From the NCBI GenBank assembly GCA_944393235.1, contig CALXZJ010000004.1, positions 4,162 through 68,161 of the forward strand: a stretch of 64,000 bases of DNA, given 5' to 3'. Position 1 is the stretch's first letter. Each line of letters begins with the position of its first letter. The position numbers and the translations under genes are program-made. Below, one piece after another: positions 1,745-57,434 of the stretch. The notes below the pieces were generated by a model that did not search any database, was not told where the DNA came from, and was given only the letters and a program-made list of their open reading frames with translations. The stretch is from an uncultured Alphaproteobacteria bacterium (GTDB taxonomy: Bacteria; Pseudomonadota; Alphaproteobacteria; RF32; CAG-239).

Positions 1745-4700
1745 ATGGACTTACGGACTTTAAAGGTATTAAGATTTTTTCATTTAATCAACAAGAAAGA
1801 ATATAATGAGAAACGGCAGATTGAACTTGTGAAAGCATCGCCGCTGTTTGATGCCAAGTGGTATTTGGAGCAAAACCCGGATGTCAAGGCCAAAAAAATC
1901 GGTGCAGCCAGGCATTATGTCAAATGGGGCTGGAAAGAAGGCCGCAACCCGGGTAAGGCATTTGATACAAAAGCCTATCTCAAACAATATCCCGAACTTT
2001 TAGAAAAAAACTGGTGCCCGCTGTTTCATTATATGCTTTTACACAAAGACTTAATTCTTCCGATAGATTGGCATGAAGTTTGGAGAAAATATTTCGGATA
2101 TATATATAAACTTTATGATGCATATGCCGTCAAATACGGGAAATACAAAGGGAAAAATCAAAACTATATTTTAATTGCCCGTTCAAAGTACTTTAACAAA
2201 CGCTGGTATTTAAAAATGTATCCGGATGTCAAAAAAGCCGGTGTCGATCCGGTAAAACATTATATGCAATTCGGGTGGAAAGAGGGGCGACATCCCGGAC
2301 CGAAATTTGATGGAAATGTATATCTTGATTTAAATGCCGATGTCAAACGAGCCAAAATAAATCCGCTGCTGCATTATGAAAAATATGGCAAAAAAGAAGG
2401 AAGAAAATTTAATATTACGCAAAATGTTTCCTTATCTCTCAGACGTAATTTTACTTTTGATGTGTATAAAGTATCAAGTGGTAATTTATATAAATTTGGA
2501 CATATAGTAAAGAATCAACCTTATTTTTCCATTATTATGCCAACATATAATCGCGATTTTTGCATTCAGAATGCCATACAATCTCTACTACATCAAACAT
2601 ATAAAAATTTTGAATTAATAATTGTTGATGATGGCTCGACAGACAATACAAAATCATTAATTCATACCATGTTTAATTTCGAGTTAGAATCCGGAAAAAT
2701 TAAATACATATACAAAGAAAATAGTGGTGTTTGTAAAACAAGGAATATAGGACTATCTCATGCTCATAATGAATGGATAGGATATTTAGATAGTGATAAT
2801 ATTTTGTTACCCCATTTTCTTGAAACGTTTGCTAAGGCTATTGTAAAAAACAAAAAAGCAAAAACTTTTTATGCTTGCTGGCAAAATTTCATTTCAAAAA
2901 AAATATTTAATCATAAATTTAATTACAACAAATTATGTGAGGAAAATTTTATAGATCTGGGAGTTTTTGTTCACCATAAGGAAGTCTATCAAGAATTCGG
3001 TGGCTTTGATGAGAAATTAACAAGATTGGTAGATTGGGAATTAATTTTACGCTATACACAAAAGTATGAACCTGTAATGTTGCCACATGTTGTAATGAGT
3101 TATAATGATACAAATGATTTTAAGCGCATTACAAATTCTATTTCATTAGATAATAATATGGCATATATTAAAAATAAATATTGTAAAAAATATAGTGTTT
3201 CATCAGGAAAAAGCGATTATGAATTAATTAAACAATCAAAATATTTTGATTCAGAATATTATTTGGCTAACAATCCTGATGTCAAGAAAGTCGGCGTAGA
3301 TCCGGTAAAACATTATCTCAAGTTCGGATGGAAAGAAAAGAGAACCCCTTCCTGTAATTGCGATGATATCGGATATTTGGAAAGGTATAAAAGTGTAAAA
3401 GCCGCAAACATAAATCCTTTGTTGCATTATGAGAAATATGGGAAATATCAGGGCTTTAGAATTGATGTTATTAAAGATTATTCGTTTTATGAACGCTTGC
3501 CGACATCAGAATACAAAAAAGAGCTTGCGCTTTGGTTTAAGGAAAAAACCGGAAAGAAATTGAATCTGAACAATCCGCAAACATATAACGAAAAGATTCA
3601 GTGGCTCAAACTTTATGATTCCACACCGATTAAAACCCGTCTGGCGGATAAATATCTGGTACGCGATTGGATAAAAGAAAAAATCGGCGAACAATATCTT
3701 ATCCCGCTCTTGGGCGTTTATGATAATTTTGATGAGATTGATTTTGCTAAATTGCCAAGCCGGTTTGTCATAAAAACAAATCATGGCAGCGGATATAATA
3801 TTATTGTTCCTGATAAATCGAAACTTGATTTAGCTGAGGCAAAACAAAAAGTTGATAAATGGATGAAAGAAAATTTCGCTTTCAAAGCAGGATTCGAACT
3901 ACAGTATCGAGACATGACGCCCAAAATCATTATTGAGAAATATATTGAAAATCAAAATGTGCAAGATTTATATGATTATAAGTTTTGGTGTTTCAATGGT
4001 AAAGTTAAATATATCCAGTTTTTATCAGAACGAAAAAATGGTCTGAAAATGGCTTTTTATAACACAAAATGGGAAAAACAAAATTTTGTATATAATTATC
4101 CGCTAGATACAAAAGATATCATAAAACCAGATAATTTGCACGATATGATTTTATTGGCGGAAAAACTATCTAAAGGCTTTAATCATGTCAGAATAGATTT
4201 TTATAGACTTGATGATGGAACAATTTATTTTGGGGAATATACTTTTACGAGTATGTCCGGTATCTGTAAATGGAATCTGAACAGTATAAATTCAGATTTT
4301 GGCAAATTCATCAAACTCCCTAAGCTCGCCTATGATATGGATCGCAAAGTATATTGCAAGCCTGAAGAGTGTTATAAACCCAACAAAATAGATATTAAAA
4401 GTATTTTAGCCCGTCCGGTTATACCAGATGACAGAAACCTGAAATTGACGATTGTCGTGCCGATATACAACGCTTTATCGGATGTGAAAAATTGTTTGAC
4501 CAGTTTGTTGGAAGCTAATTTGTTAAAACAAACCAAAGTCATATTGATGGATGATTGTTCAAACAAAGAAACCCAAAACTATTTGCAAAAATTTGCCAAT
4601 AAACATTCTAATTTCAAGTTATGCCGGAATAATCAAAATCTCGGTTTTATCAAAAATTGCAATAAAGGCATTGACCTGGCCAAAGGTGATATTGTCGTAT

Positions 4701-13411: not shown

Positions 13412-13985
13412 TTAAACCTGTGGCCGCATAAGATAAATAATTAAATAACAGGATATTTCAGAGTTACACATATTGCAAAAGTCATCAATTTCAGACAAAG
13501 TGACCGTACCTAAACAGTTGTTGTTTGTACAATATTGACTGCCCCAAAGTTGGGATGCATTGTAACTTTCTTCATCAGCCTGGGAGCGAAGTTGTAAAGA
13601 ATATAAATTATTGGCATTTTCTTTGGCGACTAAAATCATGTTACGGCAAATTTCAACAGCTCTTTGAGATGCTTTGCCATTAGAAATATCCATGCGGGTT
13701 GATACCTGAAAAAGCCCGATCCAAATCCGGTTTGATTTGGATAGCATTGTTTAAAAGTATATTAAAAGATTCGGCTTGTCTATTGAGCTTATACTTAAAC
13801 ATCGCTTTGGAATAACCGCTGATAGCCCCGACGCTTAAAACACCAATTATCGCCAGTACGCCGAGCATTTCAACCATACTTCTCCCGCATAGAGCCACAT
13901 CTGCTTGCCTCCTTTTATTGTGTGCTGGAGAAGAAAAACTAAAAAAATTGAACAAATTCATCAAAAGAACTCCTGAAAACTGCAA
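13412..13985 (-). pseudogene. Type IV pilin-like gene, copy 1, truncated and frameshifted. The N-terminal part is in one frame (13680-13985) and the C-terminal Cys-motif part in another frame (13412-13747). The central variable region of about 70 aa, present in the other copies, is missing.
   Basis: N-terminal ...CGRSMVEMLGVLAIIGVLSVGAISGYSKAM is identical in kind to the other four copies. The second frame encodes AVEICRNMILVAKENANNLY...C.x4.CLGTVTLSEIDDFCNMC, which aligns with the C-terminal conserved region of copies 4 and 5. The two frames overlap at 13680-13747. Confidence 0.55.
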
Positions 13986-14001: not shown

Positions 14002-14056
14002 CGTCATTCTAAACTGTTTTTTTTTTTTGCAATTTTAAAGAGTCTGGTGGGGATAA
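14002..14056 (-). promoter_or_regulatory. Conserved pilin promoter block, copy 1, with a 12-nt homopolymeric T tract (A on the coding strand) at 14017-14028.
   Basis: Block cgtcattctaaac(c/t)g-Tn-gcaattttaaagagtctggtggggataa is repeated upstream of all five pilin-like genes. On the coding strand it reads TTGC-A(n)-CGGTT-TAGAAT (-35-like TTGCAA, -10-like TAGAAT). Confidence 0.4.
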
Positions 14057-14300
14057 GTTTCTACTTATTATTTACTGTCATGCCACTGCCGAGCATTGCT
14101 CGGCAGTTTAGGCATCTCTTCTCCAAACATGCAACAGACGCCTAACCTCGAGTGCTGCGCACTCTCAGGGCGTGACAGTGTTGTATCATCACCCCATGAA
14201 CCGACGCCAGCCCCAATCCTCGTCTCCCACGAGGATACGCCAGTATCCGAGTTTTAGAGGCCCTTCTTTTTTCTTTTGTCATCTCTTCGAGGTACTGAAA
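14057..14300. repeat. Mosaic of short hairpin-forming repeat modules (modules A, B, C, D) upstream of pilin copy 1.
   Basis: Modules gtcatgccactgccgagcattgctcggcagtttaggcatctc, catgcaacagacgcctaacc, caccccatgaaccgacgcc and ccccaatcctcgtctcccacgaggatacgccagtatccgagtt recur in different order upstream of the other pilin copies (30251-30480, 38270-38360, 59791-59940, 61501-61600). Confidence 0.5.
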
Positions 14301-14364: not shown

Positions 14365-14393
14365 AACCTGCCTTATCGTATCTAAGGCAGGTA
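14365..14393 (-). terminator. Rho-independent terminator of the 929-aa gene.
   Basis: Hairpin acctgcctta...taaggcaggt followed (on the minus strand) by a T-run; lies immediately 3' of the stop at 14409. Confidence 0.55.
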
Positions 14394-14408: not shown

Positions 14409-17198
14409 TTATTTTGTATTTTGCCCGTATTTTTTCAATATGCGTGCAGCTTCCCGATCATCAAGAATTTGTTCTTGATCTGGAGAATTTTTACCTTCAA
14501 TCTGCGACCATGCCGAAAAAATAACTTTACGGACACGAGATTTTCTTGGCGGAGTATAATCCACAACCGGATTTGGATTATCCGGAACAGGTATCGGTCC
14601 GGGAGGTGTCGGAAGTATCGGATCAGGTTCCGGCTCTGGTTCAGGTTCTGGCTCTGGTTCCGGTGTCGGCTCTGGTTCTGGTTCAGGTTCAGGTTCCGGT
14701 GTCGGCTCTGGTGTTGGCTCAGGTTCAGGTTCCGGCTCCGGTCTGTCAATCCGCCGCCATTGACCGTCGTCATCATGACAATCTTTAGCCAAACTAAGCC
14801 CTGTCAATTGAGTGTTTTCTGTGCCGGTTGCCAAAATAGCATCGGTTTTATCCAACATATTGTTGACAGCCAAAGCTTGTTGATCACTGATTTTGTTGCC
14901 GCATCCCAACAAACCAATAAGAGCTTCCATCTCTTGCTGATATTGGTAAAAACGCTGATTGCTATGAATAATTGTGATAATGGACGAAGTTTCTTTATTA
15001 TCAAATTCATTAGGGAACAGCTCTTTTAACCCATTCTTTATTTCGCCTTTTCCGGCGTAAGTGTTTTCCTCGGCAAAAGAAACCAAATTGCGCATTTGAT
15101 CTTCATTTAACCCCAAATCAAGCCTATCAAAACGCTTTTCCAGATAGTCATGTCCGGAAGGCGTTTCTCTTAATGTCCCGTCACCCACCTCATAAGCTTT
15201 GCGCATAAAAGCGTACAAACGGTTAAACTTATAAATGATTTCTTCTTTGGTTTTGCCGGGGAACTGATCCATAGAACCTTCCAGATTCCTATAAACTCGA
15301 TCAAGCGTAACTTCATCGCCGGTTGCTGATTTAAGAGTACCTTCGGTTGTTTGCACCAAAATATTATACTCTCTTCTGGAAATGCCCATTTCTTCACGAG
15401 AAGTATAAGTTCTTGGGAACAACCCTCCGTCAGTATTTTCTGCCGAGGCGTCAGAAACAACATTTGCTTGAGATGCAACAGTTGAACCGCCTTGAGCTTG
15501 AACAACAGTTGTATCTGTTGCCGTTGAATCTTTTACGCCAAACAAACGACCAAGCCAGCTGCCTCGGTTTTGTTTTTCTGGTGTTTCAACATTTACGGGA
15601 GCATCGCTTGAAACAGCTGCCTCAGCATTGCTTTGTCCGCGCGAAAAACCTAACTCTTGAAACACAACGTTAAAACCAAGCCCTATCAAAGCTGAAGTCG
15701 CAGCCTGTTTAAATTCTGTACTTTTTTCTTTATTGTCAGGATCTTTGACAGCAACAGCATATGCAATTGAAGCATCGGTCAATTGGGCAACCGTTGCCGT
15801 TCCTGCACGACCCAAACTGATAGCGTGGCGTGTTTCAGCAATATTAGAAGCCAAAGATACATTCAAACCATCTTTAGCGCCGCCGACCAATGTATTGGCG
15901 GCATCGGCAGCCTCCAAGCCGTCTTTCAGCCAGGCAAAGCCGGCAACCGCCAACCCGGTATTTAAGACACCGCCGATAATGTATGAACGCTTGTCTTTAC
16001 GACTGTTCATTTTGTTTTTCCACGCCTGTTTAAGGGCATCCATAAATTTCAAAGGCGTTTCGCCTTTTTCTTTTTTCTTACGATTAATTCGGCGCATTTC
16101 GGCAATAATCGGATAAACCCAAGCGCCGGCAGTATGATATGCTGCATAAGCCGCAATTGCCGGTACCAAGACGGGAGCGGCTGCCGCACCTGCTGCGCCG
16201 GCTGCCGCAGCTGCCGTCCAGTAACCAAATGCAGCATTGGCGGCAACATTGCCGATTAATTTGAATTTATTATCACTAAAGCTGCCTTTAATATTTTTCC
16301 ATATTTCATAACGATTTTTTGAAATATGATTGGCCAGTTCTTCAAATTTGTTCTTTTTTCTTTGTAAAGAAGCGGCAAGCTTGGAAAATTCAGATTCAAC
16401 GGTTTTTCCTGCTGCTTTGGCTTTATCAACAGCTTGGTTAACAAAAGTTTGCGCTTTACGTTGCAAGGCACTTATATAACGTTCAATTTGAACAGCCGTT
16501 TCGGCGCAGCAGCTTAAAATACTGTCAACCGTCATCTTGATTTTTTCTTTGCCCTGCAAAATTGAACCAAAAACTTCAGTTGCTTTTTTGCTTTGCCGGT
16601 TAACAAAATCTCTATATTCCGGGCTGCCGATAACTTGTTCTTCCTTTGTTGGTTTGTCTAAAGAAGAGGCAATGGTTGTTTGTGCAAAATCCGCAAAGAA
16701 AATTGTTTTAATTTCGTCTTTTAAAATATTATTGCGCTCGGTTTTGCTCATATTTGCAAAATCTTTATTGCCGGCCAAAATGGCTTCGGCTTTCATTTTA
16801 GCGCCGTCAAACAACAAGCTCAGATATTCATTTTTGGTTTTATCATCAACAATTTTTTCCTGATCGCCTTTGCCGTCAATAATTTCGACGCGATCTAAAA
16901 TATCGGCAATATCTTTGTTTTTTGCTCTAAATTCTTCAAAAGTCAGATCAGCGGTGTTTTCTTCCATTTTTTTATAATTGTCCGCATACACCTTGGCAGA
17001 ATCTTCTGTCAGATTATTTTCTGTCTCAAAGGATTTTAAAGCATTCAAAGCATCTTTTAAGGCCGGATTGGTCGGATCTTGTTCGCGTACGATCCGCATG
17101 GCTTCTTGCAGTTGACTTAATGGGCATAAATAAATATCGCCTTTTAAGATTTTCAAGGCTTCGTCAAAAGTCATTTTACCGGTTGTTTCTTTTGCCAT
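14409..17198 (-). CDS. Large secreted/membrane-associated repeat protein (929 aa). It has Gly/Ala-rich hydrophobic hairpin segments and a C-terminal (PE/PT)n low-complexity region. It is a paralog of the 1317-aa protein at 38754-42707.
   Basis: N-terminus MAK..., K/E-rich helical regions, central AAAAAGAAGAAAAPVLVPAIAAYAAY hydrophobic stretch followed by a basic patch, C-terminal PEPEPEPTPEPTPEPEPEPEPEP; no recognisable enzymatic motifs. Confidence 0.65.
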   Translation of the reverse strand: MAKETTGKMTFDEALKILKGDIYLCPLSQLQEAMRIVREQDPTNPALKDALNALKSFETENNLTEDSAKVYADNYKKMEENTADLTFEEFRAKNKDIADILDRVEIIDGKGDQEKIVDDKTKNEYLSLLFDGAKMKAEAILAGNKDFANMSKTERNNILKDEIKTIFFADFAQTTIASSLDKPTKEEQVIGSPEYRDFVNRQSKKATEVFGSILQGKEKIKMTVDSILSCCAETAVQIERYISALQRKAQTFVNQAVDKAKAAGKTVESEFSKLAASLQRKKNKFEELANHISKNRYEIWKNIKGSFSDNKFKLIGNVAANAAFGYWTAAAAAGAAGAAAAPVLVPAIAAYAAYHTAGAWVYPIIAEMRRINRKKKEKGETPLKFMDALKQAWKNKMNSRKDKRSYIIGGVLNTGLAVAGFAWLKDGLEAADAANTLVGGAKDGLNVSLASNIAETRHAISLGRAGTATVAQLTDASIAYAVAVKDPDNKEKSTEFKQAATSALIGLGFNVVFQELGFSRGQSNAEAAVSSDAPVNVETPEKQNRGSWLGRLFGVKDSTATDTTVVQAQGGSTVASQANVVSDASAENTDGGLFPRTYTSREEMGISRREYNILVQTTEGTLKSATGDEVTLDRVYRNLEGSMDQFPGKTKEEIIYKFNRLYAFMRKAYEVGDGTLRETPSGHDYLEKRFDRLDLGLNEDQMRNLVSFAEENTYAGKGEIKNGLKELFPNEFDNKETSSIITIIHSNQRFYQYQQEMEALIGLLGCGNKISDQQALAVNNMLDKTDAILATGTENTQLTGLSLAKDCHDDDGQWRRIDRPEPEPEPEPTPEPTPEPEPEPEPEPTPEPEPEPEPEPEPDPILPTPPGPIPVPDNPNPVVDYTPPRKSRVRKVIFSAWSQIEGKNSPDQEQILDDREAARILKKYGQNTK
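14620..14740. repeat. Hexanucleotide (ggttcN / ggctct) tandem array encoding the (Pro-Glu/Pro-Thr)n tract of the 929-aa protein.
   Basis: About 20 consecutive 6-bp units are visible directly in the sequence. The array is in frame and could expand or contract by recombination or slippage without a frameshift. Confidence 0.7.
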
Positions 17199-30195: not shown

Positions 30196-30250
30196 CGTCA
30201 TTCTAAACCGTTTTTTTTTTTTGCAATTTTAAAGAGTCTGGTGGGGATAA
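30196..30250 (-). promoter_or_regulatory. Conserved pilin promoter block, copy 2, with 12-nt T tract at 30211-30222.
   Basis: Same block as at 14002-14056; coding strand TTGC-A12-CGGTT-TAGAAT about 40 nt upstream of the start codon. Confidence 0.4.
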
Positions 30251-30480
30251 CTTACAACCGGTACTTTATCGCCATACCCCAATCCTCGTCACTCCACGAG
30301 GATACGTTAGTATCCGAGTTCTGGGGTCTCTTCCCTTTTTCTCTGTCATGCCACTGCCGAGCATTGCGCGGCAGTTTAGGCATCTCGTCTCATACATGCA
30401 ACAGACGCCTTAACCGCCGCACTATCGCACGCCGATGGCGTGACAAAGAGGAACGCCTTACCGCAAGCGTTATGCGCTCT
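30251..30480. repeat. Mosaic hairpin repeat modules (order D-A-B) upstream of pilin copy 2.
   Basis: ccccaatcctcgtcactccacgaggatacgttagtatccgagtt, gtcatgccactgccgagcattgcgcggcagtttaggcatctc, catgcaacagacgccttaaccgccgcactatcgcacgcc; each contains a 6-7 bp inverted repeat. Confidence 0.5.
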
Positions 30481-37514: not shown

Positions 37515-38141
37515 TTATGACACTCTTTCCATATTCCATAAAATTTGGAACGAACAAGATGTTGTATCGTCGCAAGTTTTACAAAGTTCATGCATTTGTG
37601 ACAAACTTAAATCTTTTAAGCATGTTCGGTTATTTGTACAATGGGCATCGCCAAAAGCGCGATTGGTATGCTCACCTGAAACATCTTCATTATCTCTTAC
37701 AAACATTGTTTGCCACAGCAAAGCACTGCGTAGTTTAGACATTTGAAATAAGTTCATGCATATATCATAAGTATTTTGATTGATAAAAATTGCCATGCCG
37801 AAATACTGTTGTATGCCTGGTTCTAAATTATGAAATAATGAAACTTTATTATTAAAAACATCATAAATATAATAAGGGTTTTGATCTTTTATCATCTCAA
37901 CCGGTATAATACCCAATTTACTAAATAATGGAGCCATATTGTAATCTTGATGTCCCAATCTGTCTAAGTTGTCATAATGCAGCGTGGCATAATCTAAAAT
38001 GCTGCCGATTTGTTCGGTCTGTTTGTTGAGCTTATATTTCATCATCGCCTTGGAATAACCGGCAATTGCCCCGACGCTTAATACTCCAACAATTGCTAAA
38101 ACCCCGAGCATTTCAACCATACTTCTACCACATTCGCGCAT
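37515..38141 (-). CDS. Type IV pilin-like protein, copy 3 (MRECG / RSMVEMLGVLAIVG...).
   Basis: Same prepilin N-terminus; C-terminal CTNNRTCLKDLSLSQMHELCKTC motif; RBS ggagag upstream of ATG 38141. Confidence 0.75.
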   Translation of the reverse strand: MRECGRSMVEMLGVLAIVGVLSVGAIAGYSKAMMKYKLNKQTEQIGSILDYATLHYDNLDRLGHQDYNMAPLFSKLGIIPVEMIKDQNPYYIYDVFNNKVSLFHNLEPGIQQYFGMAIFINQNTYDICMNLFQMSKLRSALLWQTMFVRDNEDVSGEHTNRAFGDAHCTNNRTCLKDLSLSQMHELCKTCDDTTSCSFQILWNMERVS

Positions 38142-38179: not shown

Positions 38180-38225
38180 CGTCATTCTAAACCGTTTTTT
38201 TTTTTGCAACTTTAAAGTTTGGTAG
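38180..38225 (-). promoter_or_regulatory. Conserved pilin promoter block, copy 3 (distal half diverged), T tract 11 nt at 38195-38205.
   Basis: cgtcattctaaaccg-T11-gcaactttaaag. Confidence 0.35.
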
Positions 38226-38503
38226 GCGCAAAAATATCTCTCTTTGGATGCAAAAAATTTTATGGACGCACCGTCATGCGAAACAAATGAGAAAAAGAAA
38301 AATAGACGCCTTAACCGCCGCGCTATCGCGCACCAGTGACGTTACAGAGAGGAAAATGCAACAGACGTTTGACCACAAATGCAAGGCTTTTGTGGTTAAG
38401 AATTCCAGGATCAAACCATAGAATCAAGTTTTTCTGTTGAAATTTTTATGAAGCATCATATATCACCTCTGAAAAACAAATATATTTTTATAAGGAGATA
38501 AAA

Positions 38504-56164: not shown

Positions 56165-57434
56165 ATATTTATATTTGGAAGGTTCCTGCGGTATCAGCGG
56201 CGATATGACGGTAGCCGCCCTTTTGGATTTGGGAGGCAATCGGCAAAAACTAGACGCCGTGCTGCAAAGCTTGCCGCTTGAGGGTTATGATTATGTTATC
56301 AGCCGCAAAAACTCATACAGCATCGCCGGATGTGATTTTGCCGTCCGCCTGCATGACACGATGCCGATGCGGGAAAGCGCCTATACGCCGGAACATCATC
56401 ATGAACATGAACACGCACATCACCATGGGCATGAACACGAGCATGACCATCACCACGAACACCGCCATTTAAAAGATGTTTACGAAATTATAGACCGCGG
56501 CACAATGACTGAAAACGCTAAAAATCTGGCTAAAAAGATTTTTCATATTGTGGCGGAGGCTGAAGCCAAAGCCCACGGCTGCGGCATTGAAGAAGTCCAT
56601 TTTCATGAGGTCGGCGCCGTAGATTCTATCATAGACATTGTCTCGGCGGCGGTTTTGCTTGATGATCTAGGCATCAAAGAGGTTATTGTTACCGGCTTGA
56701 ACGAAGGGGAGGGATTCGTCATGTGCCAACATGGGCAACTGCCGGTTCCGGTGCCGGCGGTGGCAAACATTGCAAGCGCACACGGCATTACCTTGCGCAC
56801 CGGTCATGCTAAAAGTGAGATGGTTACCCCGACCGGCATTGCTATCGCTGCCGCTGTCAAAACGAGCGACCGCCTGCCGGATGAATATAAAATCTTAAAA
56901 ATCGGCGTTGGTTTGGGCAAGCGCGATTTCGGCAGGGCTAATTTTCTGCGCGCCATGATTTTGGAAGATGCGGCACGCCCGAATAATGAATCGGAAGCCG
57001 AAAAAATTTATGTGGTAGAATGCAATATTGACGATTCGACGCCCGAGGAAATGGGCTTGGCTATGGAAAAATTGTTCGCTGTCGGCGCTAAAGATGTTCA
57101 TTTTGAAACCTGCTACATGAAAAAGAACCGTCCGGCGTATATATTGCGCGTGGTTGCCGCGGCGGCGGATTTGCCGCGGATTGAAGACGCAATTTTCCGC
57201 CACACCTCAACCATCGGTTTGCGGAAATACGTTGTGGAACGCACTTGTATGGCGCGTGAGATTGTGTCGGTTTTTATCCGCGAACAAGAGGTTAAAGTAA
57301 AAAAATGCGCCTACAAAGACATTGTGCGGTATTATCCGGAATATGAAAGCATCAAGGCCTTGTCCGATACAACCGGCGAACCTTTCCGTGAGCTTTATCA
57401 ACAAGCCTGCCGTCTGGCGGCGGAAGAAAAATAA
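56157..57434 (+). CDS. larC: Nickel insertion protein LarC.
   Basis: MTKYLYLEGSCGISGDM N-terminus and His-rich tract HHHEHEHAHHHGHEHEHDHHHEH typical of LarC. Confidence 0.85.
   Translation: MTKYLYLEGSCGISGDMTVAALLDLGGNRQKLDAVLQSLPLEGYDYVISRKNSYSIAGCDFAVRLHDTMPMRESAYTPEHHHEHEHAHHHGHEHEHDHHHEHRHLKDVYEIIDRGTMTENAKNLAKKIFHIVAEAEAKAHGCGIEEVHFHEVGAVDSIIDIVSAAVLLDDLGIKEVIVTGLNEGEGFVMCQHGQLPVPVPAVANIASAHGITLRTGHAKSEMVTPTGIAIAAAVKTSDRLPDEYKILKIGVGLGKRDFGRANFLRAMILEDAARPNNESEAEKIYVVECNIDDSTPEEMGLAMEKLFAVGAKDVHFETCYMKKNRPAYILRVVAAAADLPRIEDAIFRHTSTIGLRKYVVERTCMAREIVSVFIREQEVKVKKCAYKDIVRYYPEYESIKALSDTTGEPFRELYQQACRLAAEEK

What the first reader, a model, noticed from the sequence alone, without database searches (positions are those of the whole stretch)
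14057..14300. Shuffled short hairpin-forming repeat modules immediately upstream of each pilin promoter
Upstream of the conserved promoter block, each locus carries a different arrangement of the same 20-45 bp modules. These include gtcatgccactgccgagcattgcKcggcagtttaggcatctc, catgcaacagacgccttaacc, gccgcactatcgcacgcc, caccccatgagccgacg (with partner cgtcggcgagtttaggggtctc), and ccccaatcctcgtcWcYccacgaggatacgNNagtatccgagtt. Most contain a 6-7 bp inverted repeat, and several loop sequences differ while the stems are preserved. Order and copy number differ between loci (for example D-A-B at 30251-30480 and A-B-C-D at 14057-14300). A 30-bp tandem duplication occurs at about 59810-59870. This mosaic resembles small repeat families such as REP, Correia/NIME, or RPE-like elements. 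Here it is tightly associated with the pilin cassettes. It could act as a recombination hotspot, as regulator-binding sites, or encode a divergently transcribed small RNA.
Basis: seen in the sequence. Interest (0 to 1): 0.7.

Follow-up and report, generated by a model that had tools for sequence, protein, structure and literature searches.

The report
Hairpin-repeat arrays upstream of pilin promoters
The shuffled "modules" are copies, halves and spacers of one ~42-base hairpin-forming DNA repeat, found only just upstream of the promoters of a scattered pilin-like gene family, where strain comparisons show it is the place at which these promoter regions are deleted, duplicated and swapped.

Summary
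All quoted modules are present at the stated places and, within the 64-kb window, nowhere else. They are not five independent repeats. They are variants, halves and spacers of one 41-43-nt GC-rich unit, 5'-GTCA-x4-[two-tier hairpin]-TT(T)A-x4'-TCTC-3'. The unit occurs in both orientations, as tail-to-tail doublets and short arrays. Seven of eight units fold into the same shape, and the stems covary.

A covariance model found 9 significant hits in the window and 48 in 238 kb of related contigs. Every hit lies upstream of a pilin-type promoter, apart from one promoter-less cluster I read as a relic.

At all four loci with several strains available, the array differs between strains while the flanks are 97-100% identical. 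The differences include unit-to-unit deletions, 34-bp unit duplications and replacement of the whole promoter region. Three junctions sit at the unit tail AGGCRTCT.

No RNA family, promoter or terminator signal supports an sRNA. Some pilin loci lack the modules, so they are dispensable for the promoter.

Best reading: a lineage-specific REP/BIME- or NIME-like mosaic repeat acting at the DNA level as a recombination substrate. It fails the sequence-level membership tests for canonical REP, dRS3 and the Ssn-related motif. It is a new member of a known kind, of moderate interest.

The parts
14077..14118 (-). L1 array: hairpin unit, A type (GAGATGCC-TAA-ACTGCCGAGC-AAT-GCTCGGCAGT-GGCATGAC on the - strand). 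This is the promoter-proximal unit.
Evidence: Folds as ssDNA at -16.1 kcal/mol, z = -7.9.
14119..14134 (.). L1: spacer between the tails of the two inverted units (TTGCATGTTTGGAGAA on the - strand).
   Evidence: The tails of the two units form a 16-nt inverted repeat, 14105-14120 with 14133-14148. The same spacer occurs at L2 and in L014 and L034.
14135..14176 (+). L1: hairpin unit, B type, in the opposite orientation (CAGACGCC-TAA-CC-TC-GAGTGC-TGC-GCACTC-TC-AG-GGCGTGAC on the + strand).
   Evidence: Model hit of 54.4 bits, E 5e-13. Frame scans.
14190..14262 (-). L1: distal degenerate pieces. They comprise a D-type 3' half (CACCCCATGAACCGACG), the CCCAATCC tail and an E-type unit with a decayed 5' frame.
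   Evidence: Partial model hit at 14229-14254, E 7e-4.
14006..14076 (-). L1: conserved promoter cassette that the array abuts. It holds the -10 TAGAAT (14006-14011), a poly-A run of 12 (14017-14028), the -35 TTGCAA (14027-14032) and the proximal block of type 1 (14046-14076).
   Evidence: The block is conserved at all five loci and in relatives.
30271..30330 (-). L2 array: E-type unit (30288-30330) plus its GAGGATTGGGGTATGGC tail.
   Evidence: Model hit of 46.2 bits, E 1e-10, and this copy was not in the training set.
30345..30386 (-). L2: A-type unit with one stem mismatch.
   Evidence: Model hit of 52.7 bits. Strain series at this hairpin: GCCGAGC/GCTCGGC, then GCCAAGC/GCTTAGC, then GCTAAGC/GCTTAGC.
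30402..30444 (+).
   Evidence: Model hit of 34.1 bits, E 3e-7, not in the training set. This variant does not adopt the common fold (z = -0.6).
38303..38367 (+). L3 array: one C-type unit (38303-38345) and a second tail remnant (AATGCAACAGACG, 38355-38367). The window copy has lost about 172 bp that other strains keep.
   Evidence: Model hit of 22.7 bits, E 4e-4. The deletion lies between the tails GGTTAAGGCGTCT and GGTTAGGCGTCT, seen against L026-L030.
59811..59897 (-). L4 array: a 34-bp tandem repeat of a D-unit 3' half plus the GGGGATTGGG tail (59811-59875, 1.9 copies), running into a full D-type unit (59856-59897).
   Evidence: Tandem Repeats Finder. Model hit of 53 bits. Three copies in L001, L002 and L004; two in L011, L012 and L021.
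59900..59935 (+). L4: C-type remnant in the opposite orientation (AAAAGACGCCTTAACCGCCGCACTACCGCGCATCGG).
   Evidence: Repeat families D11 and D12. Tail motif at 59903-59915.
61511..61598 (.). L5 array: a D-type unit (61511-61552, - strand) and a degenerate C-type unit (61557-61598, + strand).
   Evidence: Model hits of 51.9 bits and 9.7 bits; the second is weak, E 1.7. Strain L021 has an extra half-unit here.
30200..30270 (-). L2 promoter cassette (poly-A run of 12, proximal block of type 2).
38184..38217 (-). L3 promoter core (poly-A run of 11).
59736..59804 (-). L4 promoter cassette (poly-A run of 11, proximal block of type 2).
61442..61510 (-). L5 promoter cassette (poly-A run of 10, proximal block of type 2).

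Best explanation
The modules are variants, halves and spacers of one lineage-specific, GC-rich hairpin unit of 41-43 nt. In one orientation it reads 5'-(Y)GTCA-x4-...-TT(T)A-x4'-TCTC-3'.

As a single strand it folds into a 5-bp outer stem, a conserved 3-nt bulge (TAA on the reverse strand), 2 bp, a 2x2 internal loop, a 6-7-bp inner stem and a 3-4-nt loop. Units sit in both orientations, typically as tail-to-tail doublets with the GTCA heads outward, and in short arrays. They lie directly upstream of the conserved, poly-A-containing promoter cassette of a dispersed pilin-like gene family.

This is a REP/BIME- or NIME-like intergenic mosaic repeat that travels with the pilin cassette. I think it acts at the DNA level, not as RNA. 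The array supplies the upstream patch of shared sequence. The conserved 5'UTR and N-terminal coding region supply the downstream patch. The hairpin units are slippage or breakage points. Unit-to-unit deletion and duplication, and inter-locus gene conversion, then keep re-assorting promoter regions and whole cassettes among pilin loci.

Shown here: the unit, its fold and its covariation; its restriction to pilin-upstream DNA in the sequence available; and strain-level rearrangements whose junctions lie in the units.

Inferred: that the hairpins stimulate these events; that the resulting promoter swapping matters for expression, since the promoters carry a hypervariable poly-A tract; and that this is selected rather than a passive by-product of repetition.
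For: One unit family:
- Frame scans recover modules A, B, C, D and E as AGA-x4...x4'-TGAC on one strand or the other. The outer stems are CCCC/GGGG, TGCC/GGCA, CGCC/GGCG and TCCC/GGGA.
- Seven of eight variants give the same ssDNA fold, with z from -1.7 to -7.9.
- On 18 distinct units, 91.9% of cells pair against 69% in shuffles (0 of 500 reach the observed value). Eight of 13 pairs change on both sides. Slid controls give 28-47% paired.
- Among strains, the orthologous A hairpin goes from GCCGAGC/GCTCGGC through a one-mismatch intermediate to GCTAAGC/GCTTAGC.

Distribution:
- Window, filters off: 9 hits at E<1e-3, all in the five pilin-upstream gaps. That is 5 of 5 pilin-upstream gaps against 0 of 16 other gaps, p = 4.9e-5.
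- 238 kb of related contigs: 48 hits, all pilin-upstream or in one promoter-less cluster.
- No full unit was found in GTDB representative genomes, JGI metagenomes or IMG/VR.

Rearrangements at orthologous loci whose flanks are 97-100% identical:
- The L4 34-bp unit is present in 2 or 3 copies.
- L5 has an extra half-unit in L021.
- L3 has a 172-bp deletion in the window between two unit tails. In L034 the whole modules-promoter-5'UTR stretch is replaced in front of the same ORF, with a left junction of only 12 nt (CGTCTGTTGCAT). That is too short for an assembly chimera.
- L2 carries a different cassette in four independent assemblies, joined inside the E unit, and L034 has a tail-to-tail deletion there.
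- Three junctions fall at the tail AGGCRTCT.

Other points:
- Synteny upstream of the pilin gene next to the thymidine phosphorylase gene differs among L007, L014 and L019, while the downstream flank is kept. L020 starts at the pilin gene, so its upstream flank is unknown.
- Many metagenome contigs end in the arrays.
Against: - No complete genome of this lineage could be searched. Only about 300 kb was seen, and it was fetched through pilin genes or their neighbours, so genome-wide exclusivity is not proven.
- Pilin loci with the promoter but no modules exist (L013, L019). The arrays are therefore dispensable, and recombination could be a passive consequence of any repeat.
- One cluster has no promoter or pilin gene (L021/L022, about 2850-3135). 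I read it as a relic.
- Part of the covariation test is circular, because 14 of the 18 units were picked with pairing criteria.
- C-type units and several B-type units do not keep a good hairpin.
- The L003 patch has 65-nt and 55-nt shared flanks and could be an assembly chimera.
- No enzyme or binding protein was identified.
- The rearrangements are inferred from consensus assemblies of different samples, not observed within one population.
Confidence: 0.55

Rival explanations
1. The units are a selfish or domesticated mobile hairpin repeat, like REP/REPIN with its RAYT transposase or NTS/SRM with its Ssn nuclease. An unseen ssDNA hairpin-specific enzyme would copy or cut them, and they would simply have accumulated next to pilin genes.
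For: - The shape is an oriented 5' tetranucleotide followed by an imperfect palindrome, in inverted doublets and arrays. The units are GC-rich in a 42% GC genome.
- The flanks read YGTCA-palindrome-TC, as in the Neisseria NTS, CGTCA-palindrome-TC. There, the three bases before the palindrome and the C after it govern cleavage and binding (PMC11893778).
- Three rearrangement junctions fall at the hairpin foot AGGCRTCT.
- One cluster has no pilin gene.
Against: - The head is GTCA, not the GT[A/G]G that defines REPs (PMC3686654).
- The published SRM search pattern finds none of the units, and dRS3 is absent.
- No Y1-transposase or small GIY-YIG gene appears among the 28 window proteins scanned or among the called genes of the fetched loci; only UvrC carries GIY-YIG.
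- Hits are never at non-pilin intergenic sites, and arrays keep a fixed polarity relative to the promoter.
- The two halves of a doublet carry different inner stems, so they do not form one long REPIN hairpin.
Confidence: 0.15
2. The units are cis-regulatory protein-binding sites, such as upstream activating or insulating sequences, that control the weak, phase-variable pilin promoters.
For: - They lie about 45-300 bp upstream of the -35 hexamer at every window locus, and the sequence frames are conserved (GAGAnnCCTAAACTC and TCATGGnnTGAC).
- The promoters have short spacers of 13-15 nt, so they might need help.
Against: - Promoter-bearing loci without any unit exist.
- Number, order and type of units vary between loci and between strains at one locus.
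- Inner stems are replaced by unrelated palindromes and outer stems covary. This is not expected for sites read as duplex DNA.
- The distance to the -35 hexamer falls in two classes, 44 and 60-61 nt, which are not in helical phase (coordinates).
Confidence: 0.15
3. The array is transcribed and acts as RNA, either as a divergent small RNA or as a structured upstream leader or terminator-insulator.
For: The hairpins are stable and covary. In one orientation each hairpin is followed by TTTA.
Against: - No Rfam family matches at gathering score or at E up to 10.
- Promoter-like and terminator-like sites are no more frequent than in shuffles, and no hairpin is followed by a T-run.
- Units occur in both orientations within one array.
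- At L3 and L4 the array lies between two divergent promoters, and at L1 and L5 the upstream gene has its own canonical terminator.
- Wobble counts give no clear strand preference once the one recurrent position is set aside.
Confidence: 0.05
4. The units are integron-type attC recombination sites that mark pilin gene cassettes.
For: GTTAGGC (= GTTRRRY) and GCCTAAC (= RYYYAAC) occur in some tails. Structure is conserved while sequence varies, and there is a bulge.
Against: - By established knowledge of attC, sites are 57-141 nt, the R'' and R' boxes pair with each other, they lie 3' of promoterless cassettes, and an IntI integrase is nearby.
- Here the units are 41-43 nt, and most tails carry an extra base (GTTAAGGC, GTTTAGGC).
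- The would-be boxes belong to different units and face each other.
- Each gene has its own promoter, and the repeats are 5' of it.
- No integrase lies at the loci.
Confidence: 0.02

Closest known systems
Neisserial intergenic mosaic elements (NIME arrays of dRS3 hairpin repeats, and the longer NTS/SRM repeats cut by the ssDNA nuclease Ssn)
   Same: - Arrays of short GC-rich hairpin repeats separated by other short repeats.
- They cluster next to variable surface-protein genes, including silent pilin loci.
- Allele-replacement end points lie in the arrays, and they were proposed as recombination substrates (PMC1797815).
- The NTS has an oriented frame, CGTCA-palindrome-TC, like the YGTCA-palindrome-TCTC frame here (PMC11893778).
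   Different: - The sequence is different. dRS3 is absent and the published SRM pattern matches none of the units.
- The hairpin here is two-tiered with a conserved 3-nt bulge and is 41-43 nt long, against 20-28 nt.
- Arrays sit only 5' of one gene family's promoter and with fixed polarity.
- No Ssn gene was seen.
- The host appears to be an uncultured alphaproteobacterium. That is an inference from a GcrA gene in related contigs, not a classification.
REP / REPIN / BIME elements with RAYT transposases (Enterobacteria, Pseudomonas, Stenotrophomonas)
   Same: A conserved 5' tetranucleotide followed by an imperfect palindrome of variable composition. The elements are extragenic, form inverted doublets and tandem arrays of doublets, and are GC-rich (PMC3686654; PMC3337134).
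   Different: - The head is GTCA, not GT[A/G]G.
- Copy number appears low and tied to one gene family rather than being genome-wide.
- The doublet halves have unrelated inner stems.
- No RAYT was found.
Pneumococcal BOX elements (boxA-boxB(n)-boxC)
   Same: Modular intergenic repeats with a variable number of internal modules and predicted stable secondary structure (PMC3049150, listed; the modular make-up is from general knowledge).
   Different: BOX elements are dispersed at more than 100 sites, have defined terminal modules and are often transcribed. The units here have one module type in two orientations and are tied to one promoter cassette.
Recombination-promoting sequences at Neisseria pilE (the upstream G4-forming sequence and the Sma/Cla repeat)
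   Same: A non-B-DNA-forming or conserved non-coding element beside a pilin gene that is needed for, or marks, pilin gene conversion. The Sma/Cla repeat is mentioned in PMC1797815. The G4 is from my own knowledge.
   Different: There is no canonical G4 motif here; G-runs occur only at L4 and have a 16-nt loop. The pilin genes here are all complete, promoter-bearing copies rather than one expression locus plus silent cassettes. What is seen to be exchanged is the promoter region.

Membership tests
REP / REPIN-RAYT | Conserved 5'-terminal tetranucleotide GT[A/G]G (PMC3686654) | tested here: not met
   Units start with GTCA (GTCATGCC, GTCACGCC, GTCACCCC).
REP / REPIN-RAYT | A palindromic region of variable base composition downstream of the tetranucleotide | tested here: met
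   The common fold appears in 7 of 8 variants. Covariation: 91.9% of cells paired, and 8 of 13 pairs change on both sides.
REP / REPIN-RAYT | Closely spaced inverted doublets (REPIN) and tandem arrays of doublets (BIME) | tested here: inconclusive
   Tail-to-tail doublets and alternating arrays are present. The two halves have unrelated inner stems, so no long doublet hairpin forms.
REP / REPIN-RAYT | Highly numerous and spread over intergenic regions genome-wide | tested here: inconclusive
   In about 300 kb, units occur only upstream of pilin-type promoters plus one relic cluster. No complete genome was available.
REP / REPIN-RAYT | A cognate RAYT (Y1 transposase) gene flanked by the repeats | not testable with these tools
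   None appears among the 28 window proteins scanned with Pfam or among the called genes of the fetched loci. The rest of the genome cannot be searched.
NIME / dRS3 | The 20-bp repeat ATTCCCN8GGGAAT flanking RS elements | tested here: not met
   Zero matches in the window with one mismatch allowed.
NTS / Ssn-related motif (SRM) | Match to the published search pattern HGTCWYN(0-2)YYVSBRHN(0-5)WNVSBRGN(0-2)RNCYNB (PMC11893778) | tested here: not met
   No hit in any module of the window or of L014, L021, L027, L033 and L034. There is one hit inside a coding region at 56178-56210. The units are longer (41-43 nt) and two-tiered.
NTS / Ssn-related motif (SRM) | Oriented non-palindromic flanks: GTC before the palindrome and C directly after it | tested here: met
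   YGTC-A-x4...x4'-T-C-TC in A-, B- and D-type units. This is a resemblance by inspection only.
NTS / Ssn-related motif (SRM) | A small single-domain GIY-YIG gene (ssnA) in the genome, usually flanked by the repeats | not testable with these tools
   The only GIY-YIG protein in the fetched loci is UvrC.
NIME-like arrays (functional sense) | Arrays adjacent to variable surface-protein genes, with recombination end points in the arrays | tested here: met
   (deletions, duplications and replacements with junctions in the units). That the genes encode surface pilins is inferred from the N-terminus only.
Integron attC | 57-141-nt site with pairing R''(RYYYAAC)/R'(GTTRRRY) boxes, 3' of promoterless cassettes, with IntI nearby (general knowledge) | tested here: not met
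   The units are 41-43 nt and lie 5' of promoter-bearing genes. The motifs sit on different units, and no integrase lies at the loci.
Intrinsic terminator | A GC-rich hairpin followed by a T-run | tested here: not met
   The only terminator-like site in the two regions scanned is the upstream gene's own terminator at 14366-14392, outside the array.
Any Rfam RNA family | A covariance-model match | tested here: not met
   tRNA-Gly is the only hit at gathering score. In the two arrays scanned at E up to 10, the best hit has E 0.08 and lies on the upstream gene's terminator.

The most novel reading that the evidence does not exclude
The hairpin units are programmed recombination initiators. They would be either self-extruding fragile sites or targets of a dedicated, still unseen structure-specific ssDNA nuclease or recombinase that cuts at the conserved foot (AGGCRTCT / GTCA). 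They would drive promoter swapping among dozens of complete pilin-like genes. Together with the slippage-prone poly-A tract inside each promoter, this would be a two-layer variation system, combining tract-length ON/OFF switching with recombinational re-assignment of promoters. It has not been described for pilins and would lie in an uncultured, apparently alphaproteobacterial lineage.
Probability: 0.15. Interest if true: 0.8.

Novelty: new member of a known kind. Interest (0 to 1): 0.5.

Why it matters
Small hairpin repeats next to contingency genes are well studied in only a few cultured pathogens, namely Neisseria NIME/NTS, E. coli BIME and pneumococcal BOX elements. Whether they promote variation or merely accumulate is still debated.

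Here a compact, sequence-unrelated family is tied to a single gene family and a single promoter cassette. Natural strain variants place deletion, duplication and promoter-replacement junctions in the units. That makes the question unusually tractable, because there is one unit type, one gene family and clear predictions.

The repeat also flags a large, uncharacterised pilin-like multigene family. The family has at least 7,901 database relatives, no Pfam model and hypervariable poly-A promoters. It looks like a surface-variation system in bacteria known only from metagenomes.

There is a practical consequence too. These arrays are where metagenome assemblies of this lineage break.

Tried and rejected
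- **GTDB representative genomes, full unit pattern.** Only one chance hit (Kribbella). The lineage or the unit is not represented, so no genome-wide count was possible.
- **JGI metagenomes.** The unit pattern gave 0 hits. The promoter pattern gave 4 chance hits with no pilin gene. IMG/VR gave 0 hits.
- **Rfam.** Nothing at gathering score on the whole window, and nothing at E up to 10 on two arrays.
- **Sigma-70 and terminator scans.** Nothing above chance in the arrays. The scan does not even call the pilin promoter, because its spacer is 13-15 nt.
- **G-quadruplex idea, by analogy with the Neisseria pilE G4.** G-runs (GGGGTGACGGGGATTGGG) occur only at L4 and in its expansions. The fourth run is 16 nt away, and the other loci lack them. 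Rejected as a general feature.
- **attC reading.** Rejected on length, position, box geometry and the absence of an integrase.
- **MITE reading of the ~100-bp doublet (8-bp terminal inverted repeats GTCAYGCC/GGCRTGAC).** No target-site duplication at L1 or L2. Not supported.
- **Invertible-promoter reading.** A 20-nt inverted repeat flanks the -10 hexamer, but the arms are only 32 nt apart and the segment has the same orientation in every strain seen. Not pursued.
- **Small ORFs in the arrays.** Not conserved between loci.
- **Empty-site comparison to define cassette ends.** L032 and L033 lack a pilin gene after the L9 gene, but synteny also changes there, so no clean empty site was obtained.
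- **L1 orthologues.** The only long contig ends exactly at the array, so this locus gave no strain comparison.
- **PDB sequence search with the pilin-like protein.** No relative found.
Full report
**Setting**

The window carries five paralogous pilin-like genes, all on the - strand and scattered among housekeeping genes:

- L1, about 13412-13985, frameshifted
- L2, 29511-30158
- L3, 37515-38141
- L4, 59070-59693
- L5, 60686-61318

Their neighbours include the ATP synthase operon, priA, queA, hemN, rpsF-rplI, lolA and a two-component system.

The proteins share a prepilin-like N-terminus...G|RSMVEMLGVLAIIGVLSVGAI. They match no Pfam family and give only weak NCBIfam hits to pseudopilins. They have no PDB relative. 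They have at least 7,901 relatives in the protein collection, almost all from metagenome assemblies, and a few are named PilE or PulG by JGI. A related contig encodes GcrA, which suggests an alphaproteobacterium. This is an inference, not a classification.

Each gene is preceded by a conserved block. In gene orientation it reads TTATCCCCACCAGACTCTTTAAAATTGCAA-A(n)-CGGTTTAGAATGACG.

**Checking the observation**

- The tandem duplication is 34 bp, 1.9 copies, at 59811-59875.
- The order differs between loci: on the + strand L1 reads A-B-D-E and L2 reads E-A-B-C.
- Of the 21 intergenic gaps of at least 60 nt, all five pilin-upstream gaps carry modules and none of the other 16 does (p = 4.9e-5).

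**What the modules are**

Read in gene orientation, A, D and the core of E share the frame GAGA-x4-TAA-AC-(TC)-stem-loop-stem-(TC)-(A/G)T-x4'-TGAC. B and C are the same frame on the other strand.

- The 4-nt boxes are complementary and come in four versions: CCCC/GGGG, TGCC/GGCA, CGCC/GGCG and TCCC/GGGA.
- The inner stem is replaced outright between variants: GCCGAC, GGATAC, GAGTGC, GCCGAGC, GCTAAGC, CCGCCGC and GGTGTTG. More distant contigs add AGACGC, GCGGAC and AACGC.

Folded as single-stranded DNA, seven of eight variants give the same shape. It has a 5-bp outer stem, a 3-nt bulge, 2 bp, a 2x2 loop, a 6-8-bp stem and a loop of 3-8 nt (z from -1.7 to -7.9). One C-type variant does not adopt it.

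On a gap-free alignment of 18 distinct units:

| Measure | Observed | Control |
|---|---|---|
| Cells forming a standard pair | 91.9% | 69% in shuffles (0 of 500 reach the observed value) |
| Pairs with a change on both sides | 8 of 13 | |
| Cells paired with partners slid by 1-3 columns | | 28-47% |

Fourteen of the 18 units had been picked with pairing criteria, so this test is partly circular. The frame-only scan required only the outer 4 bp and recovers the same set.

Wobble pairs do not single out one strand once one recurrent position is set aside.

The remaining "modules" are spacers or half-units:

- TTGCATGTTTGGAGAA lies between the tails of two inverted units.
- GAGGATTGGGG(Y)ATG(R)C follows some units.
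- The D1 copies at 14190 and 59824 are half-units.

The usual arrangement is a tail-to-tail doublet with the GTCA heads outward (I1), repeated or truncated. The unit next to the promoter is always in the same orientation.

**Distribution**

A covariance model of the unit was run over the whole window with filters off. It gives nine hits at E<1e-3, all in the five pilin-upstream gaps. Four of them were not in the training set.

Over 238 kb of related contigs it gives 48 hits at E<0.01. Every one lies upstream of a pilin-type promoter or in one cluster at L021/L022, about 2850-3135. That cluster lies between a dsbA-like and a recN-like gene. It has the normal polarity and ends about 15 nt into the promoter-proximal block, right at the recN stop codon. 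I read it as the relic of a deleted cassette.

Conversely, some pilin loci have the promoter block but no unit. In L013 the upstream terminator abuts the block, and L019 has two such loci.

Units with the same frame but other stems occur in more distant contigs such as L033 and L032. The family is therefore older than the species but is not universal in the clade.

Exact full units were not found in GTDB representative genomes, JGI metagenomes or IMG/VR. A true genome-wide census was therefore impossible.

**What happens at the arrays**

Orthologous loci from other metagenome samples were retrieved through pilin proteins and through the identical L9 and ATP-synthase delta proteins. Four loci could be compared between strains. 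At all four, the array differs while the distal intergenic sequence and the pilin ORF are 97-100% identical.

| Locus | Difference between strains |
|---|---|
| L4 | The 34-bp half-unit repeat has two copies (window, L011, L012, L021) or three (L001, L002, L004). |
| L5 | L021 has an extra half-unit. |
| L3 | The window lacks 172 bp that L026-L030 keep; the end points are the two unit tails GGTTAAGGCGTCT and GGTTAGGCGTCT. |
| L3 | L034 has the same ORF, but everything from the distal tail CGTCTGTTGCAT through another array, another proximal block, the promoter and the 5'UTR is replaced. |
| L2 | Four independent assemblies (L026, L028, L029, L035) carry a different cassette, joined inside the E unit. 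|
| L2 | L034 has a deletion between two tails. |

The left junction of the L034 replacement at L3 shares only 12 nt with the donor type. That is too short for a de Bruijn assembly chimera. The L003 variant of L4 has a 120-bp patch identical to the neighbouring P0025 locus. It has 65-nt and 55-nt shared flanks, so it could be an assembly artefact and I do not rely on it.

Three independent junctions therefore lie at the unit tail AGGCRTCT.

Three further observations fit the same picture:

- At L2, the A-unit hairpin changes between strains by compensated steps: GCCGAGC/GCTCGGC, then GCCAAGC/GCTTAGC with one mismatch, then GCTAAGC/GCTTAGC.
- The conserved N-terminal coding region is the most polymorphic part of the L3 ORF, at 92-95% identity against 100% for the rest. 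This is what conversion among paralogues would give.
- The pilin gene next to the thymidine phosphorylase gene keeps its downstream neighbour but has three different upstream neighbours in L007, L014 and L019. L020 begins at the pilin gene, so its upstream side is unknown.

**How it most likely works**

The promoter is bracketed by two kinds of sequence shared among loci. The unit array lies upstream, and the conserved 5'UTR with the N-terminal coding region lies downstream.

The data show that deletions and duplications occur between units. They also show that the stretch between the two shared regions can be exchanged.

I infer that the arrays act at the DNA level as recombination substrates. 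I also infer that the hairpins, through slippage, fork stalling or extrusion behind a divergent or active promoter, make these events frequent.

Because each promoter contains a poly-A run whose length differs between strains at the same locus (8-13 A), swapping promoter regions would re-assign expression states among genes. That consequence is inference.

It is equally possible that the rearrangements are a passive by-product of repetition. The compensated stem changes argue that something maintains the hairpins: selection, templated repair, or a protein.

**Rivals**

- **Mobile REP/RAYT- or NTS/Ssn-type repeat.** This is the most serious rival. The oriented frame YGTCA-palindrome-TCTC recalls the Neisseria NTS, CGTCA-palindrome-TC, whose flanks govern Ssn cleavage and binding (PMC11893778). 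Junctions at the hairpin foot would fit a nuclease. Against it, the REP-defining GT[A/G]G head is not met (PMC3686654). The published SRM pattern matches none of the units, dRS3 is absent, and no such enzyme gene was seen. No unit lies at a non-pilin site.
- **Regulatory binding sites.** This is weakened by loci without units, by variable number and order, by covariation, and by unit-to-(-35) distances of 44 and 60-61 nt.
- **RNA function.** This lacks any support.
- **attC reading.** This fails on length, geometry and position.

**Comparison with known systems, and novelty**

The closest concept is the neisserial NIME array. It consists of hairpin repeats interleaved with other short repeats, clustered at variable surface-protein genes including silent pilin loci. 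Recombination end points lie in the arrays, and the authors said they had not seen such arrays outside Neisseria (PMC1797815).

In form, the units also resemble REP/BIME elements (PMC3686654, PMC3337134) and modular BOX elements (PMC3049150).

The family described here works like these but is not a sequence-level member of any of them. What sets it apart is its two-tier hairpin with a conserved bulge, its restriction to one gene family's promoter cassette with fixed polarity, and the observed replacement of promoter regions.

I classify it as a new member of a known kind. If a dedicated enzyme or a demonstrable promoter-swapping switch were found, it would rank higher.

**Verdict**

The REP/NIME likeness and the recombination site hold, the sRNA does not, and the regulatory role is untested.
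- Interest is moderate, at 0.5.
- The main limitation is that no complete genome of the lineage could be searched. The rearrangements are also inferred from consensus assemblies of different samples.

Noticed in passing
window 14017-14028, 30211-30222, 38195-38205, 59747-59757, 61453-61462: A homopolymeric A/T run lies between the putative -35 (TTGCAA) and -10 (TAGAAT) hexamers of every pilin promoter. It is 12, 12, 11, 11 and 10 nt long in the window and 8-13 nt in relatives. It differs between strains at the same locus: L5 has 10 in the window, 13 in L001 and L021, 9 in L002 and L011, and 12 in L022. The resulting spacers of 11-16 nt are shorter than the usual 17. This looks like slipped-strand phase variation of transcription.
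   Followed up: partly
window 59700-59719 with 59752-59771 (same at the other four loci): A 20-nt inverted repeat, 90% complementary, brackets the -10 region: CTCTTTAAAATTGCAAAAAA ... TTTTTTGCAATTTTGGAGAG in gene orientation. The downstream arm overlaps the ribosome-binding site. The arms are only 32 nt apart, and the orientation is the same in all strains seen.
   Followed up: no
window 13412-13985: The L1 pilin-like gene is split into two frames and is probably a pseudogene. The same lesion is present in another sample's contig (L036), so it is not a sequencing error of the window.
   Followed up: partly
L021 2850-3135 and L022 2825-3110: There is a cluster of about five units and half-units with no promoter block and no pilin gene, between convergent dsbA-like and recN-like genes. 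It ends about 15 nt into the promoter-proximal block, at the recN stop codon. It is probably the relic of a deleted cassette.
   Followed up: partly
L021 9930-9960: In one strain the -35 hexamer and the poly-A run of a pilin promoter are deleted cleanly between two TTTA repeats (CTCTTTA|TTAGAATGACG). The neighbouring strain L022 keeps the intact promoter.
   Followed up: no
L026 7302-7790 and L028 7391-7879 (orthologues of window 37515-38141): A 138-nt in-frame deletion within the pilin ORF lies between two ATGCATGAAC repeats. In the same alignment, the conserved N-terminal coding part is more polymorphic between strains (92-95% identity) than the variable rest (100%). This suggests conversion among paralogues.
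   Followed up: no
window 61319-61440 (L5) and 13900-13985 (L1); L013 9880-10000: A subset of the pilin genes has a conserved leader of about 120-150 nt between the promoter and a TTG or GTG start codon. The leader contains a hairpin (GTGTACAACATTAAGTACAC). L013 has a tandem duplication of AAGAGGTACACGAGGAGCA there.
   Followed up: no
window 13412-61318; L021 10001-18131: All five pilin-like genes in the window, and the sixth just beyond its right end, point the same way although they are separated by unrelated genes. Crossing-over between direct copies would delete essential genes, so only conversion-type events could survive.
   Followed up: no
ends of L005, L006, L012, L020, L026, L028, L030, L034, L036: Many metagenome contigs of this lineage start or stop inside the arrays or the promoter block, which shows that assemblers break there.
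   Followed up: no
window 14614-14745 and 39072-39269: Two very large neighbouring ORFs contain in-frame tandem repeats. The 929-aa protein has a (P-E/T-P)n stretch with 12/18-nt periodicity. The 1317-aa protein has 66-nt repeats in three copies, plus further repeats at 38840-39662. They may be variable surface proteins.
   Followed up: no
L028 12571-13416; L032 2799-4591: There are strain-specific insertions near the compared loci. In L028 a tyrosine-integrase gene directly follows the ~1310-aa gene; in the window, tRNA-Gly (42976-43050) lies just beyond the orthologous gene. In L032 an HNH gene and an IS1595 transposase gene lie between hemN and the trypsin-like gene.
   Followed up: no
window 56178-56210: This is the only match in the window to the published Ssn-related motif pattern. 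It lies inside a coding region (the LarC-like gene) and is probably chance; 0.08 matches are expected per shuffled window.
   Followed up: no
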